A DNA stretch of 64,000 nucleotides, taken from IMG/VR virus record IMGVR_UViG_3300037234_000386, positions 1 through 64,000 of that record. One strand, given 5' to 3'. This DNA is from a virus. The notes under the pieces are model-generated. The model saw only the letters and a program-made list of their open reading frames with translations, had not been told where the DNA came from and ran no database searches. The position numbers were made by a program, and so were the translations under genes. Shown here one piece after another: positions 2,228-26,010 of the stretch (its first letter is position 1; the number at the start of each line of letters is the position of its first letter).

Positions 2228-4255
2228 ATGCCATTAGATTTTTCAGACTTAGGGATAAAGACAAAGAATGCAAAAAGATATGCTACCACGTGTCCAGAGT
2301 GCAGTCACAATAGAAAAAAGCAATCAGCACCATGCTTAACTGTTAACGATGAACCGAACAACAGATGGTATAAGTGCTGGAATTGTGGCTTTAGTGGAAA
2401 TTTAGATGTGCAGGACAAGTACGAAGCGGTCAGAGAGAAAGCCAAGATGCCCAATCTACGGAAAGCATTCACCCAAAAAGCTAAAGCATACATTAAAACT
2501 TGGGGCATTAGTGAAAAGACATTAAAGCATTTTGAAATTTACGAAGGAGTGATATTTGGTAAATTACAACTAAACTTTCCATTTTTCATGCATCATACAT
2601 TAGTAAATGTAAAACATCTAAATGCAGAATGGAAAAAAGGAGACAACTATTCCAAATGGTATCAACTATCCCTTAAAGAAGGGGAAGAGAGAAAGATACT
2701 CCCGTTTGGAATAAACAAGATAAAAACCCACGATGAAGATGGTGTTAAAATACCTAATTTAAGGCTCTTAATTACAGAAGGAGAAAAAGATTGTGTCACA
2801 TTTTTCGAGTGTGAATACGAAAATGTAATATCAGTTCCACAAGGAGCACCTTCACTTAACGCCAAAGATTTTAAGAAAGAATTTGCATGGTTAAATGATC
2901 CATATGTAAAAACTATCTTGGATGAAGTAGAATATTTCTATTTAGCCGTAGACGCAGATGAACCGGGTAAAAAGCTTTGCCATCATCTATCTGAAATACT
3001 AGGCAAAGAAAAATGTAGAATAATTCAATACCCCACAGGATACAAAGATATTAACGAAGTATTCATGGGCGATGAAAAAAAGGGACTAAAAGCATTGGGC
3101 AAAGATGGAGTTGACGAGTGTTATAAAAACATAAAATCTATTGCTATCAAGGGAATAATTAGGATTCATGAAGTTTATGACAAGATACTTGAAATAAGAA
3201 AGAATGGATTTGTTCCAGGATTTGGAGTTGGGGATAAAGATGTAGATTATCTTTTCACGATGAAGAGAAAGCTTTTGATGGTAATTACAGGCGTACCAGG
3301 GGCGGGTAAGAGCGTTTGGGCAAGGTGGTGGATTGTTAAAATGATAATTCACAATGTTGACTTGGACTTAAAATGGGCAATGTTTACACCAGAAAACAGA
3401 CCAGTAGAGAGGGAATATGCCAAAATACTAGAAGTTTTCACAGGGCAATTGCTAAAAGAGGATTCACACAATAGCATGAGTGATGATGTGCTAAGAAAAG
3501 CTTCTAGATGGATACATAAGCACATAATGATAATAGCTCCAGACAAATACAACCACGAATCTTTTGGAGGAACGGTTAATAATGATAACCACAATACTCT
3601 TGATTCTATTCATAAATACGTAATCTATTTAAAGAAGACAGAAAATATTTTTGGTTACATGATCGATGCTTGGAATAAGATAGAACACGAACAACCAAAA
3701 AATCAAACCGAAACACAATTTATAAGCAAACAGTTAGATAAGGTTCTTTCGTTTGGGGATTATTGGGATGTAGCAACTATTATAATAGCTCATCCTACAA
3801 AAATAGAGATGGTGGGAGAAAACTTTAAAATGCCTTCTCTTTATAGCATAAAGGGATCTTCAGCATGGAAAGAAAAAACAGATATTGGTGTAATCATACA
3901 TCGTTATAAGATGAAGAAGTTATCTGCAAAAGAAGCAATGGAGAAGGGTATTGACTTAGCTTCATGCGATGATGATGAAAAATGGGAAGTTATGCCAAAG
4001 GCACCTAATATTATATTTACGGAAAAAATTAAATTTGAAGAAACTGGGCATGAGAGCAGGGTAAAGATGGAGATGAGGGGATTTGGACAGTTCTTCGTAA
4101 TAAAGAATGGAGATCAAAAATCACTACCTCCACCAGAAGAGCCTAAAAAAAACACCAATAAAAGCAAGCAGCAAAAGATTGAGCACCCTGATTCTAGAAC
4201 GGAGTCTGTAGCTAAGGTATTTGACGATGATGAATGGGATGATTTGCCTTTCTAG
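2228..4255 (+). CDS. bifunctional DNA primase-helicase (T7 gp4/Twinkle-like)
   Basis: Zn finger CPEC...CWNC, TOPRIM ITEGEKD...DAD, SF4 Walker A GVPGAGKS, IDAWN, AHP, IKGS motifs. Confidence 0.93.
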   Translation: MPLDFSDLGIKTKNAKRYATTCPECSHNRKKQSAPCLTVNDEPNNRWYKCWNCGFSGNLDVQDKYEAVREKAKMPNLRKAFTQKAKAYIKTWGISEKTLKHFEIYEGVIFGKLQLNFPFFMHHTLVNVKHLNAEWKKGDNYSKWYQLSLKEGEERKILPFGINKIKTHDEDGVKIPNLRLLITEGEKDCVTFFECEYENVISVPQGAPSLNAKDFKKEFAWLNDPYVKTILDEVEYFYLAVDADEPGKKLCHHLSEILGKEKCRIIQYPTGYKDINEVFMGDEKKGLKALGKDGVDECYKNIKSIAIKGIIRIHEVYDKILEIRKNGFVPGFGVGDKDVDYLFTMKRKLLMVITGVPGAGKSVWARWWIVKMIIHNVDLDLKWAMFTPENRPVEREYAKILEVFTGQLLKEDSHNSMSDDVLRKASRWIHKHIMIIAPDKYNHESFGGTVNNDNHNTLDSIHKYVIYLKKTENIFGYMIDAWNKIEHEQPKNQTETQFISKQLDKVLSFGDYWDVATIIIAHPTKIEMVGENFKMPSLYSIKGSSAWKEKTDIGVIIHRYKMKKLSAKEAMEKGIDLASCDDDEKWEVMPKAPNIIFTEKIKFEETGHESRVKMEMRGFGQFFVIKNGDQKSLPPPEEPKKNTNKSKQQKIEHPDSRTESVAKVFDDDEWDDLPF

Positions 4256-4307
4256 CGCAGCAATAACCGAAACTAAAGCGTTTGGCGTAGTTGAGGTAAT
4301 GGAATGT

Positions 4308-4426
4308 AACGTTTAGCTAAGAATTGAAGCGGCTAAACTCGCAGTATTTAACGAATAGAGACTAATTAAATTGATTAATACAAACCTAGGCATGCGACAA
4401 CCCCGCTTTTATTTTTAGCTGTTGTT
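4308..4426 (+). repeat. attC-like site 1
   Basis: AAC GTTT AGCTAAGAATTGAAGCGG ... CCGCTTTTATTTTTAGCT GTT GTT. Confidence 0.85.
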
Positions 4427-4448
4427 ATAGCCTGTATTTTAGAAGATT

Positions 4449-4733
4449 ATGAAAACGAAAAGAATTTGGAAATTTGAATTAGAGACTACCGACAGACAAA
4501 CTGTAGCAATGCCAGAAAATGCGGAAATACTAACAGTGCAGACGCAAAATGAAACACCTTGCATATGGGCTATAGTTGAGCCTGAAAACAAGAAAGTAAG
4601 GCGAGTGTTTGAAATATTTGGCACAGGAAACCAAGTAAATTGTAATGAAGATACCGAGCGAAACTATATAGGTACATACCAATTGAGACAAGGTAGCTTA
4701 GTGTTTCATTTATTTGAAGATACCGCAATATAG
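4449..4733 (+). CDS. cassette 1 gene, conserved small phage protein
   Basis: Flanked by GTTATAGCCTGTATT / AATATAGGCTATAAC; IWKF...ILTVQ...WA...GTG...YIGT...VFHLFE pattern. Confidence 0.8.
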   Translation: MKTKRIWKFELETTDRQTVAMPENAEILTVQTQNETPCIWAIVEPENKKVRRVFEIFGTGNQVNCNEDTERNYIGTYQLRQGSLVFHLFEDTAI

Positions 4734-4738
4734 GCTAT

Positions 4739-5230
4739 AACGTGTGCATAAACCAAGTACGCAAGTTTAGATAGAATTATAATTGAAATACTAATTAAAA
4801 ATAAAAAAGCGATGGATTTTAAAAAAGAAATTATTAAGATTATGGTAGATGCTCAAGAAAAAGTAAAGATGGGCAGCGATGGTGATTACAGCCAAGAGGT
4901 TGCAGTATTAGCCGATGATTATGATGATGTAGCGGGAAAAATATATGAAGGACTTATAAAAAAGCTACAACACCACAGAGACACTACTATTGGCTTATAT
5001 GCTACTGATAAAGAAATAGGAAAACTCCTTCATTTATTTTGGCAAAGCAGCTCAGACGCTTGCCCATTAGAATGCGGCGAGGCTGAAAAGCAAGAGATTG
5101 AATTTGAGAAATGGGTTAAGGGTATTAGTTTTAGAATTGATTAAGCGTGTAGGCTTTTATTTTTAATTGCCTAAATAACCTAAGAACTTAAATTGAAAAC
5201 AACCCTAAGTATTGGGTTTGATGCGTTGTT
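4739..5230 (+). repeat. attC-like site 2 (gene in loop)
   Basis: AAC GTGT GCATAAACCAAGTAC ... GTATTGGGTTTGATGC GTT GTT; extra G in right arm. Confidence 0.8.
4812..5144 (+). CDS. cassette 2 loop gene, hypothetical
   Basis: ORF lies wholly between the arms of site 2. Confidence 0.75.
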   Translation: MDFKKEIIKIMVDAQEKVKMGSDGDYSQEVAVLADDYDDVAGKIYEGLIKKLQHHRDTTIGLYATDKEIGKLLHLFWQSSSDACPLECGEAEKQEIEFEKWVKGISFRID

Positions 5231-5253
5231 ATAAACTTTTAAAAAATACCCTT

Positions 5254-5394
5254 ATGGAAACTAAATACAGAGTGAGAATATTTCAAGATAACACTTATGA
5301 AGTTATAGAAAAAGAAACAGGCGACAGTATGTTTCAAGGAACATTAGCTGATTGCGAAGCGTGGATTAGATTAGAAGTAGGCGGGTATTTTTAA
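5254..5394 (+). CDS. cassette 2 second gene, 46 aa hypothetical
   Basis: ATG at 5254; flanked by GTTATAAACTTTTAAAAAATACCC / GGGTATTTTTAATTGTTTTATAAT. Confidence 0.65.
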   Translation: METKYRVRIFQDNTYEVIEKETGDSMFQGTLADCEAWIRLEVGGYF

Positions 5395-5403
5395 TTGTTT
5401 TAT

Positions 5404-5524
5404 AATGGCAAGTATAAGAATAGTGGCGTAATTAATAGAATAAATTTAACTTAAAAACAAATATTGATATGAAAAAAATAAACTTTAAGAACCTAAGTAT
5501 TAGACATTATTTTTATATAGTGTT
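5404..5524 (+). repeat. attC-like site 3
   Basis: AAT GGCAA GTATAAGAATAGTG ... CATTATTTTTATAT AGT GTT. Confidence 0.8.
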
Positions 5525-5786
5525 AAAAGCTTTTATTCAATTTCAGATTAACAATGGAATGTTTAAGCATCAATATTGCTTCGAGCGGGGGCAATGGCTT
5601 AAATACAATTGGAAAGCTAAAATAATGATTGATACTGCAATTAAAGATAAGCTTCACCCGAGGCAATTTTATAGATACTTATATAAATATCCAGATAGGA
5701 ATGTGGAATTTGACAACGAAGATAGCTGCTCTGCATTTTGGGTGCGAGGGCTTTACTTTTGGGAAAAGAAACCTAATTGCTTTTAA
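5469..5786 (+). CDS. cassette 3 gene, hypothetical
   Basis: Starts in the loop of site 3; its TAA stop coincides with the junction GCTTTTAAT. Confidence 0.7.
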   Translation: MKKINFKNLSIRHYFYIVLKAFIQFQINNGMFKHQYCFERGQWLKYNWKAKIMIDTAIKDKLHPRQFYRYLYKYPDRNVEFDNEDSCSAFWVRGLYFWEKKPNCF

Positions 5787-5905
5787 TGGTAAATGTATGA
5801 AACGGTGGGATTTGAAACACGAAACCGACAAATAAAATATAAATTTAAACAAAGCTAGTGGGCTAATAATTGCACCTTAACCCCACTGTTTTATGACATA
5901 TTGTT
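5785..5905 (+). repeat. attC-like site 4
   Basis: AAT GGTAA ATGTATGAAACGGTGGG ... CCCACTGTTTTATGACAT ATT GTT; extra G. Confidence 0.85.
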
Positions 5906-5922
5906 AAGGTGCGTTATTTATT

Positions 5923-6144
5923 ATGAAAAATGCAACTGCTGAAATTCATTTGAGTATGAATGTTGAATGCCCCCATTGTGAGGATGACATAAATTTACTT
6001 GAATTAACTGAACTGACGGATGACGGATGGATTTATAATAAAACAATGCCTGATGACCGAACATGGGGTTGTGAGGATTTTAGATACAAGCTACAATGTC
6101 CAAGCTGTAAAGAAAATTTTATGATTAAGGATGTAATTTATTAA
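5923..6144 (+). CDS. cassette 4 gene, Zn-ribbon protein
   Basis: CPHC...CPSC; flanked by GTTAAGGTGCGTTA / TAATGCACCCTAAC. Confidence 0.8.
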   Translation: MKNATAEIHLSMNVECPHCEDDINLLELTELTDDGWIYNKTMPDDRTWGCEDFRYKLQCPSCKENFMIKDVIY

Positions 6145-6152
6145 TGCACCCT

Positions 6153-6204
6153 AACGATGGTTGTAAGATTTCGTTGTTTTTCACAATGAATTTTACAACG
6201 TGTT
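6153..6204 (+). repeat. attC-like site 5 (shortest, ~52 nt)
   Basis: AAC GATG GTTGTAAGATTTCGTTG ... CAATGAATTTTACAAC GT GTT. Confidence 0.88.
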
Positions 6205-6277
6205 AGCTGACTGGTGCGAATAATTTAGTACAAACTTAAATACGAAAAACAAACAAAAATATTTTAAATTTTTAGCG

Positions 6278-6862
6278 ATGGAAGAAAAAATACTGTATTG
6301 TGGGATGGCAGATGATATTCTGACACCAATGATTTTAGTCCCAAATTTTACTAATCTTTTTGTGATTGACATATTTGATATTGCTTTTGCGAAAGAAAGA
6401 ACTTGGGATGGACAGAAAAAAGATATACTACAATGTTTGAAAAATGGCAATAATGAAAAATCGCATCATAGAGAAGTTTATTTGTATTATGACAAAAGTA
6501 CACCAACATATTCAATAGATGAGAGATGCGACATAATAGAGGAAGTTGAGAATGGTAAAATTTGGAGAGTAAAATTTACATATAATGACATTGAAAGGCA
6601 GTTGATTTATTTCCATCACACAAATTTTATTGCAAATTGGGATAATGAAATTAAAGATATTTCTCATCTAATGTGTATGGGTGCAGAATTCCCAATAGAA
6701 AAAAAAGTACTCAATAAAATGATAAAGGAAAGATGCAATGAGAAATGCAAATTTTTCGACCAATTTGCAGAATTTGACAATACGATAAAGGCAAATGCAA
6801 TAGGAAGAGATATTTTTATCAATGACTTAGAAAATGTATTATGTGCGGTGGGGAAAATTTAA
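6278..6862 (+). CDS. cassette 5 gene, hypothetical (possible Rossmann-like fold)
   Basis: 194 aa ORF; segment bounded by GTTAGCTG / CAGCTAAT. Confidence 0.75.
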   Translation: MEEKILYCGMADDILTPMILVPNFTNLFVIDIFDIAFAKERTWDGQKKDILQCLKNGNNEKSHHREVYLYYDKSTPTYSIDERCDIIEEVENGKIWRVKFTYNDIERQLIYFHHTNFIANWDNEIKDISHLMCMGAEFPIEKKVLNKMIKERCNEKCKFFDQFAEFDNTIKANAIGRDIFINDLENVLCAVGKI

Positions 6863-6914
6863 AATATTTTGAACCGAAATGTTAATACGAAGAACGAACG
6901 TAGCACTTGCAGCT

Positions 6915-7103
6915 AATGGACAAGGCTAAGATTAGTTGCGTATTATTAAAAAACAAATAAAATAAGTACATATGAGTAATTTAACAGAAGACCAAATAAA
7001 TGCAGTAATTGATTGGATGAATAACTGGGAACAATTGAAAGATACTGTAATTCCGATACGTTTCAAAGAGGATTGGACTAAGCAATTAAATTTAGCTGAT
7101 GTT
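6915..7103 (+). repeat. attC-like site 6
   Basis: AAT GGACAA GGCTAAGATTAGTTGC ... GCAATTAAATTTAGCT GAT GTT. Confidence 0.82.
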
Positions 7104-7262
7104 AACCACAGTATTTTTAAACCACCATTAGGATTGAAACCTAAATTTATACACGACCAACATCGACAAAGTGAAATAATGGCTGCAATAGCAAGATATT
7201 TAGATGTAGGTAAAACACCACCTAAAGAATGGGCGATTGAATTTGCCTCATATTGTGGTTAA
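6972..7262 (+). CDS. cassette 6 gene, hypothetical
   Basis: Reads through the right arm of site 6 (KQLNLADVNHS); stop TAA lies in TGTGGTTAAC. Confidence 0.75.
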   Translation: MSNLTEDQINAVIDWMNNWEQLKDTVIPIRFKEDWTKQLNLADVNHSIFKPPLGLKPKFIHDQHRQSEIMAAIARYLDVGKTPPKEWAIEFASYCG

Positions 7263-7392
7263 CGTGTTGTATAAACTCAGTAACGTAATTAACCGCAACC
7301 GCTCAATTGAAAAACTACTGATTCCGTTTTTATTTTTTAGGGAGGGTTTTATTTTTTTTACCTTTATATTAGGATAATAAATATATTACCCT

Positions 7393-7400
7393 TATATTTG
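7393..7400 (+). promoter_or_regulatory. Bacteroidota sigma-A -7 box inside cassette 7
   Basis: TATATTTG matches TAnnTTTG, 22 nt before ATG 7423. Confidence 0.55.
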
Positions 7401-7422
7401 GGTATAATTAAAAAGCTAAAAA

Positions 7423-7623
7423 ATGAATTACGTAAAAACAATAAAGACAACACTTAGAAAAACTAACAACACTTCAGGGGCTATGGATGATTATTTTACC
7501 TCTAAAAAGGAATTGGATAAAATTGATTTAGCTTTTTATAAAAGTGGAAGTTTAATATTTATAGAAGATGAAAATCAAGTTTATAGAATACACCAAAAAG
7601 AAGTTTTAACGCTTAAAAAATAA
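7423..7623 (+). CDS. cassette 7 loop gene A, hypothetical
   Basis: ORF downstream of promoter box. Confidence 0.7.
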   Translation: MNYVKTIKTTLRKTNNTSGAMDDYFTSKKELDKIDLAFYKSGSLIFIEDENQVYRIHQKEVLTLKK

Positions 7624-7626
7624 ATA

Positions 7627-7815
7627 ATGCTTGAGTGGCTAATAAAAAACAAAGATTCGTTAAGTCTTAGAGGCATAGAACGACAATTAGACATGCCAGA
7701 TACTACGTTGGTAAAAGCTGTAAACGGTAGCCAAAACCTACCTAAAAAGTGGATTGAACCGCTAAATAAATTCCTAATGGTTTTGCAAAAACCAACGAGC
7801 GTTGGCAAAAAATAA
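7627..7815 (+). CDS. cassette 7 loop gene B, small HTH protein
   Basis: LSLRGIERQLDMPDTTLVKAVNG is an XRE/Cro-like HTH. Confidence 0.7.
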   Translation: MLEWLIKNKDSLSLRGIERQLDMPDTTLVKAVNGSQNLPKKWIEPLNKFLMVLQKPTSVGKK

Positions 7816-7915
7816 AAACATTAGCTGTGAATTTCACTATGAAAAACTTAGCAGTTATTGATTTTATACGTTGTTGTATTGAACGACTAAAAGGAGTGGC
7901 GTTTTAATGCAATAC

Positions 7916-8037
7916 AACGTTGAGTATATAGCAAATTGCTTATTAATAAATAAAACAAAAACTTTGAATATGATTACAAAATATGTAAATACTTGGAGAC
8001 TTAAAAAATGGCAAAGCAATTTGCTATATACATTGTT
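7916..8037 (+). repeat. attC-like site 8
   Basis: Perfect 18-bp stem GTATATAGCAAATTGCTT / AAGCAATTTGCTATATAC between AAC and GTT. Confidence 0.9.
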
Positions 8038-8209
8038 AGGGTTAGTTTACTCTACAAAGATTGTAAAGGGTGATAAAATTAGATGTTATGGAATAGGTTA
8101 CCCTCATTGGAAAGGCGAGGAATTTGAATGTACACTAGACTTTAAGGATGGAACAATAGGTGTAAGAAATGCAGTAAGGGTAGCCGAGAAAGATTTTAGG
8201 AAACTATAA
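7970..8209 (+). CDS. cassette 8 gene, hypothetical
   Basis: In-frame ATG 7970 after A-rich leader in the loop; segment GTTAGGGTTAGTTTA / TAAATTAACCCTAAC. Confidence 0.65.
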   Translation: MITKYVNTWRLKKWQSNLLYTLLGLVYSTKIVKGDKIRCYGIGYPHWKGEEFECTLDFKDGTIGVRNAVRVAEKDFRKL

Positions 8210-8218
8210 ATTAACCCT

Positions 8219-8496
8219 AACGTTTATTTAAGGGCAGTGCTAAATAACGAGAGAATTTAAAACGTGAATTATAAATTAACAATTTAGAAGCGATGGCAGA
8301 TAATAGAATATATGGATATTACTGGGTGAAAATAAATGAAAAGTGGGAACCCGCATTATGGAATAGTAAAAAGCAGTGGATATTGATCGGATTTGAAAAA
8401 CCTGCTTTAGTGGATGAGGTTGGTGAACTTATTATGCGTGATGGCAAAAAGCCAACAAGCGAGCCTGATACTCAGGCATTGCCTTTAAATGTTGTT
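8219..8496 (+). repeat. attC-like site 9
   Basis: AAC GTTT ATTTAAGGGCAGTGCT ... GGCATTGCCTTTAAAT GTT GTT. Confidence 0.85.
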
Positions 8497-8691
8497 AGCT
8501 TTAACGAAGCCTGTGAATGTGATAACACCGAAGTTTGCGGTATATGCTTTCGTAAAAAAGGATATGAAATAATTGATAACGAACTAAAATTCACAGGCGT
8601 AGAGGAGGTTTGCGATAAATGCGAAGAACCATTTAGCTACAAGGGAGAATATAGGAACATTTGCTTTAAATGCGAAGATGATTTTATTTAG
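8293..8691 (+). CDS. cassette 9 gene: small beta domain plus Cys-rich Zn-binding domain
   Basis: GYYWVK N-terminal domain, linker encoded by the hairpin arm (QALPLNVVS), then CEC/CGIC/CDKC/CFKC. Confidence 0.75.
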   Translation: MADNRIYGYYWVKINEKWEPALWNSKKQWILIGFEKPALVDEVGELIMRDGKKPTSEPDTQALPLNVVSFNEACECDNTEVCGICFRKKGYEIIDNELKFTGVEEVCDKCEEPFSYKGEYRNICFKCEDDFI

Positions 8692-8704
8692 CAAACTTAA
8701 AGCT

Positions 8705-9168
8705 AACGGAAATAATAAGAAGCGTACGGAATAACCTGAGAATTTAAAACGAGTAATAATTTAAAATAAAAAAAAGCGATGGAAAATTTTGGAAAATTTA
8801 TGACACTAGTAATGGCTATGATTATTAGCCCGATTGTAAGCGGTTTTGTAACTATGAAGTTATGGTTTTGGTTTATGGTTCCAATATTTGGAATGAACCC
8901 ACTTAGATTAGTTGAAGCGATTGGATTAATGTTTTTAATTAATTACCTGAAGTTTAGAAAAACAAAGCCTACGGATAAGGATAAGTTTTGGCTTGAATTT
9001 ACAGAAAGTATAATTACTGTGATACTTATAGCTGCTGTGGCTTTGTTTAGCGGTTGGATAGTACAGAAGTTTATGTAAAGTGTGCGTAGGCTTTTTATTT
9101 TAAATTGCCTCAGTTTACACGAATGAAGCCACGAGCTACGGCACTAAGTATGCTTTTTATTTAGTGTT
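8705..9168 (+). repeat. attC-like site 10 (gene in loop)
   Basis: AAC GGAAAT AATAAGAAGCGTAC ... GTATGCTTTTTATTT AGT GTT; followed by gene-less segment GTTGTACGC...GCGTACAAC. Confidence 0.8.
8779..9078 (+). CDS. cassette 10 loop gene, membrane protein
   Basis: Three hydrophobic segments, LWFWFMVPIFG motif. Confidence 0.8.
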   Translation: MENFGKFMTLVMAMIISPIVSGFVTMKLWFWFMVPIFGMNPLRLVEAIGLMFLINYLKFRKTKPTDKDKFWLEFTESIITVILIAAVALFSGWIVQKFM

Positions 9169-9243
9169 GTACGCTGTGCTTTTTATAAGATGCTGAGAGG
9201 GTAATTATTAAGAACCAATAAAAACCTTTTTAGCATTGCGTAC

Positions 9244-9450
9244 AACGTGGATGGGCTATGAGTAGTATTTTTAACGAATTTGAAACACTAAACTAAAATT
9301 ATACATAATGATAACAGATGCTAAGATAAAACAAGGAATGGAGAAAGCTTATAAAAAAGCAGGACATAATACCTACTTCAGCAATGGTTTTGAAGCGGGG
9401 GTAAGGTTTGCACTAGAACAAGTTAAAAATATTACTTATGAGCCTGTGTT
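9244..9450 (+). repeat. attC-like site 11
   Basis: AAC GTGG ATGGGCTATGAGTAGTATTTTTAAC ... GTTAAAAATATTACTTATGAGCCTGT GTT; extra G. Confidence 0.9.
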
Positions 9451-9592
9451 AAGCGTTGTTGATTCAGATGCAAAAGAAGAGAAAGAAAAAATAATAACAG
9501 CAATACTTTATGAGCACATGGATCATCACAGCGGAAAAGTTTCAGAATTAGATTTTGATGCAGTTGTTGCAGACGTAATTAAACATACGTAA
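9308..9592 (+). CDS. cassette 11 gene, hypothetical
   Basis: Reads through right arm (VKNITYEPVLSVV); segment GTTAAGCGTTGTT / AATAACGCTTAAC. Confidence 0.75.
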   Translation: MITDAKIKQGMEKAYKKAGHNTYFSNGFEAGVRFALEQVKNITYEPVLSVVDSDAKEEKEKIITAILYEHMDHHSGKVSELDFDAVVADVIKHT

Positions 9593-9593
9593 T

Positions 9594-9631
9594 AACGCTT
9601 AACATATATTATCCTTAATGTAGTTAATCAA
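9594..9631 (-). other. putative attI-like primary recombination site
   Basis: Last AAC (9601-9603) is not followed by a hairpin. The minus strand reads GATA-ATATAT-GTT, the same xWTA-N6-GTT geometry as the hairpin arms, and sits next to the recombinase start. Confidence 0.6.
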
Positions 9632-10465
9632 TTGACACAAAAATACTTAAAAATGGAATTGACAGAGTTATTAAAAAAATATGACAACAACTTAAACCTT
9701 AAATATGATTCTAAAAATACTAAAGATGGTTATAGGAATGCGATCAATAGATATATAAAGGACAATGATAGGGTTTACAGAATGTCTACCGACAATATAA
9801 AGCAATATATGTCTAATTTTAGAAAAATATACTCTAACTCTTATTTTAATATTATGGGATCATCATTAATTTTACTTTACCGAGATGTGTTAAATCAACC
9901 ATTAAAAATGAAGTGGTTTAAGTCTATAAAAACAGAACGAAAGTTTCATCGGATAATAACTAATGATGAATTTATTCAGATGATGAAAAATGCTAAAAAT
10001 TTAAAACATAAGGTGATTTTAATAATACTTTATTCGACAGGAATAAGAGAAACTGAGTTAATAAACATTAAACTCTCAGATATTGATTTTAACTCTAAGA
10101 GAATTTTTATCAAATCGTTAAAGAATGGTAAAAACAGATATTCTCCACTAAAAGAATTAACTGAGCGTTACATTAAAGCATATATCAGAGGATGGAGCCC
10201 TAAAGAGTATCTTTTGAATGGTCAAAATACATTAAAATACTCCACAAGCAGTGTATTTCAAATGATAAAAAAGGTTTCTGAAGGTAAAGTTAATCCTCAC
10301 TTATTTCGTCATACTTTCGCCACACTTATGATTGAACATGAAGATGTGTTTTACACACAAGAATTATTAGGGCAAAGAAATCTTAATAGTACATTACATT
10401 ACAATCACATTTCTCAAGAAAGATTAATTAAATCATTTAATCCACTAGACAAAATAGCAAGTTAA
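9632..10465 (+). CDS. tyrosine recombinase (integron-integrase-related, lacks IntI-specific insertion)
   Basis: YSTGIR, KNGKNR, HLFRHTFAT, ELLGQ, catalytic Y in TLHYNH, C-terminal NPLD; alternative start ATG 9653. Confidence 0.93.
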   Translation: MTQKYLKMELTELLKKYDNNLNLKYDSKNTKDGYRNAINRYIKDNDRVYRMSTDNIKQYMSNFRKIYSNSYFNIMGSSLILLYRDVLNQPLKMKWFKSIKTERKFHRIITNDEFIQMMKNAKNLKHKVILIILYSTGIRETELINIKLSDIDFNSKRIFIKSLKNGKNRYSPLKELTERYIKAYIRGWSPKEYLLNGQNTLKYSTSSVFQMIKKVSEGKVNPHLFRHTFATLMIEHEDVFYTQELLGQRNLNSTLHYNHISQERLIKSFNPLDKIAS

Positions 10466-10467
10466 TT

Positions 10468-10737
10468 ATGAAAACACAGGGAAACGAAATTTTAATATTA
10501 CCGGATGAAAATCCAGCAGAAACGAAAACAGGTATCATCATACCTAAAACAGCTAGTAAATTAAAGCCATCTGGAATAGTTATTGGCTGTGGAGATGGTT
10601 GCAAAACGGCTTACAAGGGAGCTAGAGTACTTTATAGTCCTAAAAATGGAAGTATAATGGATATTGAAGGTAAAGAACACCATGTCATTAGAGAAGAGCA
10701 ATTATACTATGTTTATGGGAAAGAAACAGATAGTTAA
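10468..10737 (+). CDS. GroES/Cpn10-like co-chaperonin
   Basis: ETKTGIIIP mobile loop, GIVIGCGDG, GARVLY, IREEQL. Confidence 0.85.
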   Translation: MKTQGNEILILPDENPAETKTGIIIPKTASKLKPSGIVIGCGDGCKTAYKGARVLYSPKNGSIMDIEGKEHHVIREEQLYYVYGKETDS

Positions 10738-11149
10738 TAACTACAGGTGTACGAAAGTTGCTCGTAAATTCATGTATCGTTACTTAATGCCTTTAAACAA
10801 AAGGGTTGAAGAGGCAAGGGTTATTATGTCTGATGAGAATAGAACTTGGGAGCATGGGCAAAAAGAGAGATCTCAGAATAAATTTATCCTGATGGATACT
10901 GAGAACATTGATATGCATTCTTTTTATCATGAAACCATGAAATTAGCAGAACAGCATGAGAATATAGTGACTGAACTGACGGAAATATACTCAAAATGGT
11001 ACAATAAAATATCTTCAAAAGGCAAGCAGCCAAAAGAGATGATGAGTATGCAAGCAGCAGAGTTACAATCTATTTTTACAAAAATATATGAAGCCATTGA
11101 ACCATTAAAACTTGAACTTAAACCACCCGAAGGGTATAAAACAAAATAG
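10664..11149 (+). CDS. hypothetical helical protein (true start probably downstream)
   Basis: ORF fills the gap between GroES and YqaJ. Confidence 0.6.
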   Translation: MKVKNTMSLEKSNYTMFMGKKQIVNNYRCTKVARKFMYRYLMPLNKRVEEARVIMSDENRTWEHGQKERSQNKFILMDTENIDMHSFYHETMKLAEQHENIVTELTEIYSKWYNKISSKGKQPKEMMSMQAAELQSIFTKIYEAIEPLKLELKPPEGYKTK

Positions 11150-11151
11150 CT

Positions 11152-12261
11152 ATGAAAAAACATTTAAAAGTTTATCACATGAAAGAACATTCTCCAGAGT
11201 GGTATGCTTTTAGAGAGAATGGAATCGGAGGTTCGGAGTGTGCTAATGCAATAGGAATGGGGCATCCTAAATATAGTTGTCCAGCAGTATTATATCATGA
11301 AAAAGTAGGAACACATCCTCCTATTCAAAAAGACAATGAGAGAATGTTTTGGGGACGAAAGAACGAGGATAATATTGCTGAGGTATGGAAATACTACGAC
11401 AATACTACTGATGGATATATTGAAAATTACAAAAACAAAACTATTGTTCGCAATTGTCGCAACGTAAATGGATATGTTGTTAATCCTAATTATCCTTGGT
11501 TATTTGCCTCATTAGATCGAGTGATGAACAAAGAAGGCGGCATTAATTTCATTACAGCAGAGCCATTGGAACAAGAAGCTATTTTGGAATGTAAAAATGT
11601 AGGTCAATATGCTGCAAACACTTGGGAAGATGGCATACCAATGTATTTCCTTATTCAAGTACACGAATACATGATAGTATTAGAAACTGATTATGCAGAA
11701 GTAGCAATGCTTGTTGATGGTGGAAGACTTGAAGTCGTTAAGCTAAATCGAGACGATAAGCTTTGTGAACAGATTATACGAATGACAAAATCATTTTGGT
11801 ACGATAGGGTTGTTCCTGCAAAAGAAGCCTTTGCAAAACAACAAGAAGCTGACAAGGCAGGGAACATGAATGAGTCTGAAAAACATGAAGCTATTATACA
11901 GCATTTGGAGCCAGAACCAAATGATTCCGAAGCTTACAACGCCTTTATGAATGAAAAGTTTGTTAAGGAAAGAGAATCGGTTCAAGGCAACATGGATCTA
12001 CTCAAGTTGGGAAGAAAATACCACTTGTTAAATAAGATCATTAAAAAGCTGGATGCCGAAAAACAACTTATAAAGAATGTTTTTGCTAAATTTTTAACAG
12101 TTAATGGCTCTGAATCAGTAGATTTTGGTAGTAGTGGTCGGATTAATTGGTCCTCAAGAAAAGGATCTAGCAGCAGAACATTTGGTAATAAACTTAAAGA
12201 AAAACCTTCTGACGATATTGTAGAAGATGAAGTGAGTAAACTAGATCTGGATTGTTTTTAA
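11152..12261 (+). CDS. YqaJ/lambda-exonuclease family nuclease
   Basis: EWxxxRxxGIGGSE, WGxxNE, ASLDR, LECK, Y-x-x-QV-x-x-YM. Confidence 0.92.
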   Translation: MKKHLKVYHMKEHSPEWYAFRENGIGGSECANAIGMGHPKYSCPAVLYHEKVGTHPPIQKDNERMFWGRKNEDNIAEVWKYYDNTTDGYIENYKNKTIVRNCRNVNGYVVNPNYPWLFASLDRVMNKEGGINFITAEPLEQEAILECKNVGQYAANTWEDGIPMYFLIQVHEYMIVLETDYAEVAMLVDGGRLEVVKLNRDDKLCEQIIRMTKSFWYDRVVPAKEAFAKQQEADKAGNMNESEKHEAIIQHLEPEPNDSEAYNAFMNEKFVKERESVQGNMDLLKLGRKYHLLNKIIKKLDAEKQLIKNVFAKFLTVNGSESVDFGSSGRINWSSRKGSSSRTFGNKLKEKPSDDIVEDEVSKLDLDCF

Positions 12262-24339: not shown

Positions 24340-26010
24340 TTAAGATTTAGTTAATGATTGTCTTTGCGACATTGCACCACACCACCCAACCAAGGGAAGT
24401 GAGGAGAGAGAGAAGAGAACTAAACAGAGTAGCCAAGAAACAATTGTAAAGTATGGACCTTGCAGTCTGTTAAGTTGGTGCGCTCAATAGATTGAGTCTT
24501 TGTATTGTCGTTGTAAACGGTTTCAAAGGCGATTAATTTACCGTTAATAATTTCGTGCTCTACATCGTGAGCATCTAATATTTTAGTTATCCAGCACATA
24601 AGCTATCTTTTATAAATTATAAATAAACCTATTGTAAACATGCAAGCCAGAGAGATAAAACAACATATACTCTGCATTTCCTCACACTCACAACCAAAAT
24701 AAAAGCTTGCAACCATAACAAGCAATAAGAACAATATTTTAACAATTTTCATAGCTGTAATTTATTGGTTAGTCCCTTACATGTTATCAAAAACACACAA
24801 TCTACTGTTGTAGTAAGGGTTTGTAGCTTTCTAGCGTTCAAATTGTCACTGGTTATAACCCATTTTACTTGCATTCTCGAAAACTCAGGAAATAAAGAAC
24901 TTGTTTGTGATTTGATGAAACAAAGTAAAGCAATAAAGTAACACCGTGCACTATCGCATTGCATGTTATAGAACACAAACGCACGGCATAACCTCACAAC
25001 ACCAGTAAACACACTGCACAACACCACTAAATAAAAAACAAACAATTATAATAACTATACAGAGAACAAGAGAGAGGAGCCAGAGAGAGGAGAACAACAC
25101 CACAGTAAAAACTCATATAAGCTCATTTAAGCACATTACAGTACATCAGTGCACCACAACACCACAATTACAGACATAACACCACCACACACAAGAGAAT
25201 ACCGAACACACCAGACACAACACCATAACAAAGAAAAGAAAGAGAGAGTACAGAGAGGAGAGAGAGTAAAAGAATAATAGCAGGGTGTTTGTTCGTTTGT
25301 TATGTCTTAATTACCTAATTTATTGCTTTTGTGTAGATTTAACGAGTGATTACTGTGTTTAACCCATTGTCAAAGACATGGAAAGGCAGCATTAACAATG
25401 GGTTCAGCGTGTTTTATTACTCTCTGTGTGTGTATTATTTTGGACTGCTCAAAGTGACTGATAATTATAATTGTGTTAAATAGGCCATATTGACATATGA
25501 ATTAGTAAGCCTCTCCCCTACCCTATCAATAGGACATTAGAACGCTTTATTGCAGCCTAGAATGAACCGCTTTTAAGTGTTGGTATGCTGTGAGCCAGTG
25601 AGAACACAAAAGAGGGGGTACGGTTCGGAAAAATCGTTTGGGGATCCAGATCGGAGACCGGTTTTACATACATAGACCCCCGTGACAGATACACTCAGGA
25701 TATTTTTTTTGGGGCAGTGGTAGTGGGGTTTATAGGGGAAGCTTGTTCTGTGTGGAGAGTGGGGTTCTCTGTGTGTGCAGAGATGGGTATTGGGTTACAC
25801 AGAGAGAATAATGGACAATACGCACGTGTAGGACTAGTGGTACAATGTAATATTATACAAAAAAAATTTCGAGATATTAGGGTTTTTGTTTGGTTGTTAG
25901 GAATAAAGGTAGTAATATTGCTAAAGTAATTTTACGGAATTTACATTATAGCGTTGATGGTATGACCGCTGAGAAAACCATTGGGGCATTAAAAAGGGTT
26001 AAAATAGAGG
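24340..26010. other. large non-coding strand-switch region
   Basis: No convincing ORFs; AC/AG-rich low-complexity tracts then GT-rich tracts; genes diverge on either side. Confidence 0.65.
25889..25920 (+). promoter_or_regulatory. rightward host-type promoter
   Basis: TTTG-N19-GTAATATTG, third copy. Confidence 0.65.

What the first reader, a model, noticed from the sequence alone, without database searches (positions are those of the whole stretch)
4308..10465. Phage-encoded integron-like gene-cassette system: 11 cassettes, attI-like site and a non-IntI tyrosine recombinase
Seen: between the primase-helicase and a tyrosine recombinase lie 11 units, each an imperfect hairpin AAC/AAT...GTT followed by a segment. 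Each segment's first bases are the reverse complement of its last, e.g. GTTATAGCCT/AGGCTATAAC, GTTAAAAGC/GCTTTTAAT, GTTAACCACA/TGTGGTTAAC, GTTGTATTG/CAATACAAC, GTTAGGGTTA/TAACCCTAAC, GTTAGCTTTAA/TTAAAGCTAAC, GTTGTACGC/GCGTACAAC, GTTAAGCGTT/AACGCTTAAC. The sequences differ between units, but the structure is conserved. Established: this is the logic of integron cassettes, whose R''/R' boxes are complementary only in the excised circle. Inference: a crAss-like Bacteroidota phage uses its own recombinase to capture, excise and reorder small accessory genes, possibly anti-defence or host-takeover genes. I am not aware of a description of this architecture in such phages, but a literature check is needed.
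Basis: partly seen in the sequence, partly recalled or inferred. Interest (0 to 1): 0.96.

Follow-up and report, generated by a model that had tools for sequence, protein, structure and literature searches.

The report
Phage gene-cassette array with own recombinase
A marine phage carries a row of about twelve small swappable gene units, each ending in the same three letters and folding in the same way, next to a dedicated DNA-cutting-and-joining enzyme, so it looks like a phage version of the bacterial integron made with a different enzyme.

Summary
All eight quoted GTT-X…X'-AAC pairs exist. I count 12 units bounded by AAC/AAT between 4310 and 9603, followed by a Xer-like tyrosine recombinase (9653-10465).

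Each junction has an attC-like layout on the coding strand: X'-AAC, a 2-6 nt spacer, a 14-23 pair stem with conserved G·T pairs, a long loop holding the gene start, a 1-3 nt spacer, then GTT-X.

The recombinase belongs to a clade of about 41 proteins, 42-81% identical. None of the 185,579 bacterial and archaeal species genomes scanned gave a match above 40% identity. It lacks the IntI insertion. All six other IMG/VR loci of the clade carry such arrays directly upstream. In 11 of 11 loci an AAC lies 49-51 nt before the recombinase start.

Two phage contigs, 98.6-99.8% identical elsewhere, differ in the array by 7.0-kb and 2.5-kb blocks of cassettes, and all four breakpoints fall at AAC.

Caveats:
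- There is no evidence for circles or for catalysis.
- Three complete or near-complete phages, including the cultured Polaribacter phage P12002L, have the sites but no recombinase.
- The window's enzyme has Gln at one catalytic-pocket His.

My literature searches found only classical attC clusters in phages (Qi 2023) and the PeSL cassettes of T4-type phages. The scan's earlier notes concern this same stretch only.

The parts
4301..4310 (+). Distal end of the array: the first ...TAAC junction, which has no partner arm upstream
   Evidence: followed by a complete site (stem 4315-4332/4403-4420, GTT at 4424)
4311..4741 (+). Cassette 1. L stem 4315-4332/4403-4420; R arms 4424-4433/4732-4741; ORF 4449-4733 (94 aa, DUF7352)
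   Evidence: L stem 15 Watson-Crick + 2 G.T of 18; R arms 10 of 10
4742..5406 (+). Cassette 2, possibly composite. ORF 4812-5144 lies between the AT-rich leader/trailer stem 4793-4806/5155-5168. ORF 5254-5394 lies inside R arms 5228-5235/5399-5406 (AAT end)
   Evidence: The L stem is weak (8 pairs). A homologue of the 4812 gene with the same flanks is in L067
5407..5787 (+). Cassette 3. L stem 5411-5425/5505-5519; R arms 5522-5530/5779-5787 (AAT end); ORF 5469-5786 runs through the L 3' arm and the R 5' arm
5788..6155 (+). Cassette 4. L stem 5795-5809/5882-5896; R arms 5903-5912/6146-6155 (9 of 10); ORF 5923-6144
6156..6199 (+). Cassette 5: a hairpin without ORF, R arms 6160-6171/6188-6199 (10 Watson-Crick + 2 G.T of 12)
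   Evidence: 80% identical to a stretch in L063
6200..6917 (+). Cassette 6. R arms 6202-6209/6910-6917 (AAT end); AT-rich stem 6256-6272/6854-6870 (17 of 17) around ORF 6278-6862 (194 aa)
   Evidence: The homologue in a jumbo phage has no such flanks
6918..7263 (+). Cassette 7. L stem 6924-6939/7082-7097; R arms 7101-7110/7254-7263; ORF 6972-7262
7264..7918 (+). Cassette 8. L stem 7268-7284/7854-7870 encloses ORFs 7423-7623 and 7627-7815 and a TATATTTG promoter-like box at 7393. Short R hairpin 7873-7881/7910-7918
7919..8221 (+). Cassette 9. L stem 7924-7941/8014-8031 (18 of 18); R arms 8035-8044/8212-8221; ORF 7970-8209 (79 aa)
   Evidence: The match to Cellulophaga phage phi18:1 gp30 (87.5%) ends exactly at 8221
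8222..8707 (+). Cassette 10. L stem 8224-8241/8475-8492; R arms 8494-8504/8697-8707 (11 of 11); ORF 8293-8691 with a Cys-rich C-terminal part after the R 5' arm
   Evidence: The same arms close an empty 29-nt hairpin in L058
8708..9246 (+). Cassette 11. L stem 8713-8727/9148-9162; AT-rich stem 8758-8772/9092-9106 around ORF 8779-9078 (membrane protein, phrog_2169); R hairpin 9166-9174/9238-9246
   Evidence: The same leader, trailer and R hairpin flank an unrelated ORF in L060
9247..9603 (+). Cassette 12, next to the recombinase. L stem 9253-9275/9422-9444; R arms 9448-9457/9594-9603; ORF 9308-9592
9601..9652 (+). attI-like junction: the last AAC, followed by ATATATTAT... with no L stem and no G; 49 nt to the recombinase ATG
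   Evidence: AAC at 49-51 nt in 11 of 11 clade loci, followed by an A/T-rich word of the form wTAwATTAwA
9653..10465 (+). Tyrosine recombinase, 270 aa, Xer-like, co-oriented with the array and downstream of it

Best explanation
The stretch 4310-10465 is an integron-like gene-capture platform carried by a phage. It was built with a recombinase that is not an integron integrase.

The cassette. A cassette runs from the base after one AAC (or AAT) to the next AAC. Read on the coding strand, it starts with a short spacer and the 5' arm of a 14-23 pair 'L' stem. Then comes a long loop that holds a promoter-like A/T-rich region and the start codon (in some cassettes the whole ORF). Then come the 3' arm of the L stem, 1-3 nt, GTT-X, the rest of the ORF, and finally X'-AAC just after the stop codon.

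The site. In an excised circle, X'-AAC would meet the cassette's own start. The coding strand could then fold into one site made of an R stem (X'-AAC with GTT-X, about 10 bp, often followed by a G.T at position 11), an unpaired spacer, the L stem, and a variable loop. This is the layout of an attC bottom strand. In the array only AAC/GTT, and often GCTAAC/GTTAGC, can pair across a junction.

The reaction. I propose that the recombinase encoded 49 nt after the last AAC binds such folded single strands, cuts in or just after AAC, exchanges strands between two sites to excise a cassette, or between a circle and the recombinase-proximal AAC|wTAwATTAwA site to insert one. The product would be resolved by replication.

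Shown by comparison: the site structure with covariation, its strand bias, the link between arrays and the recombinase clade, and cassette gain, loss or reordering with breakpoints at AAC.

Inferred: that this enzyme does it, that the substrate is single-stranded DNA, that circles exist, and that new cassettes enter at the recombinase-proximal site.

Cargo is mostly ORFans. In related arrays several cassettes are orphan DNA methyltransferases, so counter-defence is a likely use.
For: Site structure
- The L stem has a median of 16 pairs in 48 junctions, against 4 (maximum 10) in 300 controls.
- In an alignment of 15 sites of about 116 nt from six arrays, RNAalifold predicts 16 pairs. 13 of them show compensatory double changes. 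Two G.U pairs are conserved, in 10 of 15 and 14 of 15 sequences.
- Spacers: the 5' spacer is mostly 5 nt (13 of 24 stems); the 3' spacer is 1-3 nt in 23 of 24.
- R stems: 24 of 56 have a G.T at exactly position 11.

Strand bias
- Non-Watson-Crick pairs inside L stems: 40 G.T/T.G against 3 A.C/C.A. Inside R stems: 31 G.T against 1 A.C. The coding strand is therefore the strand that folds.

Recombinase
- Pfam Phage_integrase plus SAM_4.
- R, K, H, R and Y are invariant in 21 of 21 aligned clade members.
- A clade of 41 proteins at 42-81% identity, then a gap to 36% or less.
- In one genome for each of 185,579 species, the best match is 35-40% identical.

Co-occurrence
- Strict GTT[AG]-X6...X'6-AA[CT]G wraps: 38 in 52.6 kb upstream of seven clade recombinases, against 2 in 56 kb downstream.
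- Background is 0.031 per kb in 42 unrelated phage loci and 0.020 per kb in 79 bacterial loci with outgroup recombinases.
- An AAC lies 49-51 nt before the ATG in 11 of 11 loci.
- A second, 32%-identical recombinase sits in the same position at the end of another array (L022).

Turnover
-, as described in the summary. The three other differences between those two genomes, outside the array, have other kinds of boundaries.
- Between unrelated loci, shared modules start exactly at AAC/AAT+GG after unlike X' sequences. The phi18:1 match ends at AAC.

Absence in relatives
- The two relatives of this phage (primase 58% identical) have primase followed by GroES within 240-480 nt, and no PF00589.

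Cargo
- Three N6_N4 methyltransferase cassettes in L065 and one in L022.

Outside support
- Qi et al. 2023 (section 3.4 and passages read) report that one predicted attC of Polaribacter phage P12002L was recombined into attI1 by IntI1. That phage carries sites of this kind. I could not check whether theirs is one of them, because supplements were closed.
Against: - No circle, no junction read and no biochemical evidence. The only sequencing run that holds the stretch is kept as contigs and may be the source sample.
- Only one near-identical genome pair was available, and both members are metagenome assemblies. At one of the two indels the flanks share about 16 nt, so homology-driven exchange is possible there.
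- Sites and cassettes occur in phages without any PF00589 protein: G004 (100% complete), G015 (92%) and P12002L (complete record). The structure does not need the enzyme in cis and may have another primary role.
- G.T pairs on the coding strand fit an RNA structure as well as single-stranded DNA.
- The window's enzyme has Gln where 19 of 21 clade members have the pocket His, so this copy may be weakened.
- 10 of 48 junctions have no L stem above the control range. Cassettes 2 and 8 hold two ORFs each.
- By the strict count, L063 has 0 wraps upstream and L067 has 1, although both end in a cassette at AAC|TAT.
Confidence: 0.72

Rival explanations
1. The stems are mainly RNA structures of the early or accessory transcripts. 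In this reading, pairing between 5' and 3' parts wraps each gene, insulates it from read-through, and sets stability or translation. The DNA breakpoints at AAC then reflect module boundaries kept by selection, and the recombinase is a passenger or exploits these sites secondarily.
For: - The wobble bias lies entirely on the sense strand.
- Stems enclose start regions, and the 3' arm always sits within about 10 nt of the stop codon (46 nt in cassette 6).
- The A-rich leader pairs with a T-rich trailer, and the pair covaries between genes.
- The sites are present in three phages without a recombinase.
Against: - Rfam gave no match.
- The 5' arm of the L stem lies upstream of the promoter-like boxes in the loop, so transcripts from a cassette's own promoter would lack it.
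- It does not explain the fixed AAC 49-51 nt before the recombinase gene, the 20-fold enrichment upstream of one recombinase clade, or breakpoints that share only 4 nt.
Confidence: 0.13
2. A PeSL-like system. Conserved promoter/terminator modules between small ORFs act as short homologies, and the phage's general recombination functions (YqaJ exonuclease with an annealing protein) shuffle genes without any site-specific enzyme.
For: - Modules of about 80 nt, running from AAC+GG to the ATG, are 80-94% identical between unrelated loci and precede unlike ORFs.
- The same leader and trailer flank different ORFs in the window and in L060.
- In co-occurring contigs there is a joint 4814->5149.
- A YqaJ gene lies at 11152-12261.
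- PeSL mini-circles are described in T4-type phages (PMC2839356; abstract and section 14 read).
Against: - At the recombinase-proximal junction the two forms share only TAAC.
- Homology of shared modules starts sharply at AAC after unlike X' sequences.
- The R and L stems covary with fixed geometry, which homology-driven exchange does not require.
- This mechanism probably does operate as a second layer, swapping ORFs inside fixed leaders and trailers.
Confidence: 0.1
3. The recombinase is an ordinary lysogeny integrase or dimer resolvase, and its position beside the array is a coincidence of a variable region.
For: PHROGs files it with integrases. NCBIfam ranks Xer models first.
Against: - The same arrangement and spacing occur in 11 of 11 clade loci, on phage backbones that lack the window's primase (0 of 5 records tested).
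- No member of the clade was found in 185,579 species genomes, so there is no sign of prophages.
Confidence: 0.05

Closest known systems
Classical integrons (IntI, attI, attC cassettes)
   Same: - An array of small cassettes beside a tyrosine recombinase of the Xer/IntI group.
- Sites are defined by structure more than by sequence: an R box ending in AAC and pairing with GTT, an unpaired spacer, an L stem and a variable loop.
- The breakpoint is at AAC.
- The first bases of a cassette pair with its last bases.
- There is a distinct site without a hairpin next to the recombinase gene.
- Arrays without the enzyme exist.
   Different: - The enzyme fails the IntI model cut-off (96.5 against 265 bits) and lacks the IntI insertion.
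- The folding strand is the coding strand.
- ORFs start inside the site's loop and are translated through its arms.
- Cassettes carry their own promoter-like regions.
- The recombinase lies downstream of the array and points the same way.
- Conserved G.T pairs stand where attC has extrahelical bases.
- The R box is about 10 bp and specific to each cassette.
- It is found only on phage contigs so far.
attC clusters without integrase (CALINs) in virulent phages, Qi et al. 2023, PMC9892861
   Same: Hairpin sites with GTT/AAC cores beside methyltransferase genes in phages, including Polaribacter phage P12002L. By my scan that phage carries at least seven wraps and junctions of this kind. The authors showed recombination by IntI1 for one P12002L site (section 3.4 read).
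   Different: - They treated the sites as ordinary compact attC sites borrowed from bacteria, and found only two in that phage.
- They describe no dedicated phage recombinase, no attI-like site, no gene-containing sites and no coding-strand polarity.
- Their site coordinates are in supplements that I could not open.
PeSL mobile regulatory cassettes of T4-type phages (PMC2839356, PMC4122927)
   Same: Hyperplastic regions of small ORFans, each preceded by a conserved promoter plus stem-loop. The modules mediate insertion, deletion and replacement of genes, and mini-circles are reported.
   Different: PeSL exchange is homologous recombination between similar modules. There is no recombinase, no invariant core triplet, no gene-spanning complementary arms and no fixed site geometry.
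Xer recombinases acting on folded single-stranded phage DNA (CTX phage integration at dif; recalled, not checked here)
   Same: A Xer-type enzyme uses a hairpin formed by one DNA strand as its substrate.
   Different: That system uses host enzymes, a single site and whole-genome integration. It has no cassette array.

Membership tests
Integron integrase (IntI) | Scores above the curated cut-off of the integron-integrase model TIGR02249 | tested here: not met
   96.5 bits against a cut-off of 265, matched in two stretches. XerA_Arch scores higher (135.7, also below its cut-off of 220)
Integron integrase (IntI) | IntI-specific insertion in the catalytic domain (the extra helix that contacts extrahelical bases) | tested here: not met
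   residues 171-209 of the query (39 aa) stand opposite residues 174-260 (87 aa) of VchIntIA, 2a3v
Tyrosine recombinases | Catalytic R-K-H-R-(H/W)-Y | tested here: met
   R132, K157, H216, R219 and Y250 are invariant in 21 of 21. Position 241 is His in 19 and Gln in 2, the window's protein among them
Integron (system) | attC-type site: R box with an AAC/GTT core, unpaired spacer, L box, variable loop, conserved in structure rather than sequence | tested here: met
   The layout is met on the coding strand. Conserved G.T pairs are seen instead of extrahelical bases
Integron (system) | Cassette boundaries and rearrangements at the AAC/GTT core | tested here: met
   four of four array breakpoints at ...TAAC|. 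Shared modules begin at AAC. The exact phosphate cannot be placed
Integron (system) | Promoterless cassettes, with the ORF outside the attC on the strand opposite to the recombinogenic one, and the integrase upstream and divergent with attI and Pc | tested here: not met
   ORFs start inside the site and run through it on the folding strand. The recombinase is downstream and co-oriented
Integron (system) | Circular cassette intermediates and integrase-dependent recombination of folded single strands | not testable with these tools
   Only contigs of one run were available
PeSL regulatory cassettes | Exchange by homologous recombination between similar promoter/stem-loop modules | tested here: inconclusive
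   Similar modules exist, and ORF swaps inside the same leader and trailer are seen. The recombinase-proximal breakpoint, however, shares only 4 nt
Xer chromosome-dimer resolvases | Scores above the XerC, XerD or XerA equivalog cut-offs | tested here: not met
   96.8 against 335, 88.3 against 330, and 135.7 against 220

The most novel reading that the evidence does not exclude
Phages of marine Flavobacteriia (the host is inferred) own an independent integron analogue. A phage-restricted Xer-like recombinase clade, lacking the IntI insertion, recombines folded coding-strand sites whose loops carry promoters and gene starts. This would let virulent phages capture, stockpile, reorder and trade self-expressing accessory genes such as orphan methyltransferases. 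The many recombinase-less arrays in other phages, P12002L included, would be a shared cassette pool mobilised in trans during co-infection. If so, single-strand cassette recombination arose at least twice, or predates IntI, and it offers a compact enzyme and site pair for engineering.
Probability: 0.55. Interest if true: 0.93.

Novelty: new variant of a known kind. Interest (0 to 1): 0.88.

Why it matters
- Integrons are known as bacterial devices that depend on one enzyme family with a special insertion. A phage-borne system with the same logic, but with another recombinase, the opposite strand polarity and genes inside the sites, would show that cassette capture through folded single strands is a more general solution. 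It would also bear on the open question of where attC sites and IntI came from.
- It gives a concrete mechanism for the fast turnover of small accessory and counter-defence genes in virulent phages, and a route for exchange between unrelated phages.
- It explains why attC-like sites turn up in phages.
- It is directly testable, because a cultured phage (Polaribacter phage P12002L) carries the sites, and the enzyme and site are small.

Tried and rejected
- I first read the units with classical integron polarity (cassette from GTT to the next GTT). That put ORFs across cassette borders and clashed with the phi18:1 match at 7951-8221. I dropped it for AAC-to-AAC units once the L065/L066 breakpoints were seen.
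- Inversion (shufflon-like) between the inverted arms: rejected. The arms are unique to each unit, and no inverted form was seen in any related locus.
- Ribozyme or other known RNA family: no Rfam match at E up to 1 in 3500-11500.
- Ordinary host promoters in every spacer: only 7393 (TATATTTG) fits TAnnTTTG well. The others end in A. The motif AATTKAAAMMC is not enriched in the window (3 matches against 1.4 expected).
- Close relatives of the whole phage: none in the phage collection (no match). IMG/VR gave two relatives at 58% primase identity. The recombinase alone found nothing in IMG/VR; its clade alignment did.
- Sequencing runs: one DNA run kept as contigs, possibly the source. No RNA holder was listed. 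The laid contigs break at 4785-4814, 5149-5178, 5437-5466 and 9422-9450, and give joints 4814->5149, 7933->8025 (+22 nt) and 7817->9267 (+30 nt), with sides of only 24-33 nt at a likeness threshold of 85%. I read these as other arrays in the sample that share modules, not as excision products.
- crAss-likeness: Pfam and PHROGs on large ORFs gave almost nothing, and tblastn of one conserved protein gave only 27-30% hits to Salinibacter and Komagataeibacter phages. There is no basis for the label.
- Cargo function in the window: only DUF7352/phrog_3848, a membrane protein (phrog_2169) and weak hits. 9 of 13 ORFs had no family.
- I did not run IntegronFinder or HattCI (not available), built no covariance model, and made no fold or complex prediction.
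- Literature searches found no description of a phage recombinase clade with such arrays. Subscription journals and supplements were not searchable.

Full report
**What is in the window**

The window is bases 1-64000 of a 72,323-bp virus record with direct terminal repeats. Genes are tightly packed up to the Toprim primase-helicase (2228-4255) and again from a GroES-like gene (10468) and a YqaJ exonuclease (11152) onward. Between them lie 13 small ORFs separated by 60-229 nt, followed by a tyrosine recombinase. Two IMG/VR relatives, with 58% primase identity, go from primase to GroES within 240-480 nt. Neither has any PF00589 protein, so the whole 6.2-kb stretch is an accessory island.

**The observation**

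- They are not chance. 9 of the 11 GTT-initiated 9-nt inverted pairs in 64 kb lie at 4.4-9.6 kb.
- Exact GC-containing inverted pairs number 22 in the array, against 6.1 +/- 3.4 in shuffles.
- The 3' arm always overlaps the stop codon or follows it within about 10 nt (46 nt in one case), and it ends in AAC, or in AAT in three cases.
- The 5' arm begins with GTTA or GTTG. It may lie before the start codon or deep inside the ORF.

**What a unit is**

Reading the units as GTT-to-GTT cassettes fails, because ORFs would cross borders. One ORF (7970-8209) has an 87.5% identical homologue in Cellulophaga phage phi18:1. That match runs from upstream of the ATG to exactly the AAC at 8221.

The comparison of two IMG/VR contigs settled the matter. 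L065 and L066, extended with L069 and L070, are 98.6-99.8% identical over about 25 kb, including the recombinase and everything after it. Upstream of the recombinase they differ in two ways. One has 7,014 nt of extra cassettes. The other has 2,526 nt of different cassettes between a shared 411-nt cassette and the recombinase.

All four breakpoints read ...TAAC|. At the recombinase-proximal one the alternative forms share only TAAC. The three other differences between these genomes, outside the array, have unrelated boundaries.

Shared modules between unrelated loci likewise begin at AAC/AAT+GG after unlike preceding bases. A unit therefore runs from the base after one AAC to the next AAC. With that definition every ORF of the window lies within one unit, and there are 12 units (ends at 4741, 5406, 5787, 6155, 6199, 6917, 7263, 7918, 8221, 8707, 9246 and 9603).

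**Site anatomy**

After X'-AAC comes a spacer, mostly 5 nt. Then comes the 5' arm of a stem whose 3' arm ends 1-3 nt before the next GTT-X.

- In 48 junctions from six arrays the stem has a median of 16 pairs. In 300 random segments the median is 4 and the maximum 10, and 38 of the 48 exceed that maximum.
- Fifteen junctions share a length of about 116 nt. Their alignment gives 16 consensus pairs, 13 with compensatory double changes, and two G.U pairs kept in 10 and 14 of the 15 sequences.
- The 5' arm tends to read GGTATGnTTAGTG. The 3' arm tends to read ATTnnTTATACC.
- When the 3' arm lies in a reading frame it yields recurrent peptide words such as LNIPVVS.
- The R stem (GTT-X with X'-AAC) is usually 9-11 bp. 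In 24 of 56 cases a G.T follows at position 11, and then 3-7 more pairs.
- Non-Watson-Crick pairs are G.T on the coding strand in 71 cases, against 4 A.C or C.A. The coding strand is therefore the one selected to fold.
- The loop of the stem holds A/T-rich promoter-like boxes and the start codon. In some units it holds the whole ORF, which is then also bracketed by a perfect 14-17 bp A-rich leader/T-rich trailer pair that covaries between units.
- Empty units exist. One is a 40-nt hairpin in the window. There are also 29-nt hairpins with the same 11-nt loop but three different stems in other loci. One of those has the same arms as the window's unit 10.

**Comparison with attC**

Read on the coding strand, X'-AAC / spacer / L stem / loop / spacer / GTT-X is the order of an attC bottom strand.

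**The recombinase**

- It has the SAM-like and catalytic domains. R, K, H, R and Y are invariant in the clade. The window's copy has Gln where 19 of 21 have His.
- NCBIfam ranks archaeal XerA first (135.7 bits, cut-off 220). The integron-integrase model reaches 96.5 bits against a cut-off of 265.
- Against VchIntIA, 39 residues stand where IntI has 87, so the IntI insertion is missing.
- In 5.8 billion proteins there are 41 relatives at 42-81% identity, then a drop to 36% or less.
- One genome for each of 185,579 species gave nothing above 35-40%.

**Co-occurrence of recombinase and arrays**

- Six further IMG/VR loci carry clade members. The five of their records that I tested hold no match to the window's primase.
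- All six have arrays of the same wraps directly upstream, on the same strand.
- By a strict definition there are 38 wraps in 52.6 kb upstream and 2 in 56 kb downstream. Background is 0.02-0.03 per kb. Two loci (L063, L067) contribute only 0 and 1 to the strict count, though both end in a cassette.
- In all seven loci, and in four short metagenome contigs, an AAC lies 49-51 nt before the start codon. It is followed by an A/T-rich word and no stem.
- A 32%-identical recombinase outside the clade sits in the same place after another array.

**Arrays without the enzyme**

Cassettes with complete sites also occur where no tyrosine recombinase is present. These are G004 (100% complete), G015 (92%), and the complete genome of the cultured Polaribacter phage P12002L. 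That phage has at least seven wraps around methyltransferase, Mom-like and small genes, and junctions of the same build.

This is the pattern of integrase-less attC clusters in bacteria. It also leaves room for a primary role of the structure in RNA.

**Cargo**

In the window the cargo is mostly ORFans. In L065 three cassettes, and in L022 one, encode N6/N4 DNA methyltransferases.

**Literature**

- Qi et al. 2023 (abstract, section 3.4 and passages read) found 17 attC clusters without integrase in 10,705 phage genomes. One was in P12002L with two methyltransferase genes, and they showed IntI1-dependent recombination of one P12002L site. They describe no phage recombinase and no gene-containing sites. 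Their coordinates are in supplements that I could not open.
- PeSL cassettes of T4-type phages (two papers; abstracts and one section read) share the idea of mobile regulatory modules and mini-circles, but work by homology.
- Six searches found nothing closer.

**Verdict**

The finding stands. It is best read as a phage integron analogue with a distinct recombinase clade and inverted polarity.

Shown here: the structure, covariation, strand bias, co-occurrence and AAC-bounded turnover.

Inferred: catalysis by this enzyme, a single-stranded DNA substrate, circles, and the direction of insertion.

An RNA role for the stems, and a second layer of homology-driven ORF swapping inside fixed leaders and trailers, are not excluded and may coexist.

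Noticed in passing
window 4785-4814 and 5149-5178; 8758-8790 and 9079-9106; L060 8515-8588 and 8880-8920: The same A-rich leader (ending ...AGCGATGG) and the same T-rich trailer (a small covarying stem that presents the T-rich run) flank unrelated ORFs. This is seen in the window, in L060, L058 and L022, and in co-occurring contigs. It suggests that ORFs are swapped inside fixed expression frames.
   Followed up: partly
L022 1541-1569 and 3267-3295 (- strand); L058 2003-2031; L229 about 30900 and 30050: 29-nt 'empty' hairpins of the form GTT-X6, an 11-nt loop TCGTTTTAATG, then X'6-AAC. The loop is identical and the stems differ. The loop contains TAA followed by TG, the same word that precedes many 3' arms after real stop codons.
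   Followed up: partly
window 8470-8500, 7085-7105, 9425-9460; L024 9280-9300, 9870-9890, 10150-10175: Where the 3' arm of the L stem and the GTT arm lie inside ORFs, they are translated into similar peptide words (ALNIPVVS, ALPLNVVS, LLAIPIVS, LNLPDVIKS). These words often lie between an N-terminal part and a C-terminal Cys-rich or other domain, so the site may double as a linker.
   Followed up: no
window 24964-25783: An 818-nt stretch without ORFs of 40 aa or more. It is the second-richest place in the genome for GC-containing inverted pairs (11 in the 24-26 kb bin). These are not of the GTT/AAC kind.
   Followed up: no
L229 (Polaribacter phage P12002L) 29180-29237 and 37200-37263, - strand: The same sequence of about 60 nt follows the terminal AAC of two different cassettes 8 kb apart. 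It may mark the ends of two sub-arrays.
   Followed up: no
window 10373-10375 (codon 241 of the recombinase): Gln replaces the His found in 19 of 21 clade members at the third pocket position. The window's enzyme may be less active than its relatives.
   Followed up: partly
window 6278-6862; L002 2001-2561: The 194-aa cassette protein has a 68.5% identical (DNA level) homologue in a 462-kb uncultured jumbo phage. There it is tightly packed between other genes and has no flanking arms.
   Followed up: partly
L065 449-465 and 7480-7496: A near-identical 17-nt word (...CATTACyGCTAACGGT) stands at both ends of the 7-kb block that is extra in L065. Many cassettes share GCTAAC/GTTAGC, so neighbouring sites can pair over 6 bp.
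   Followed up: partly
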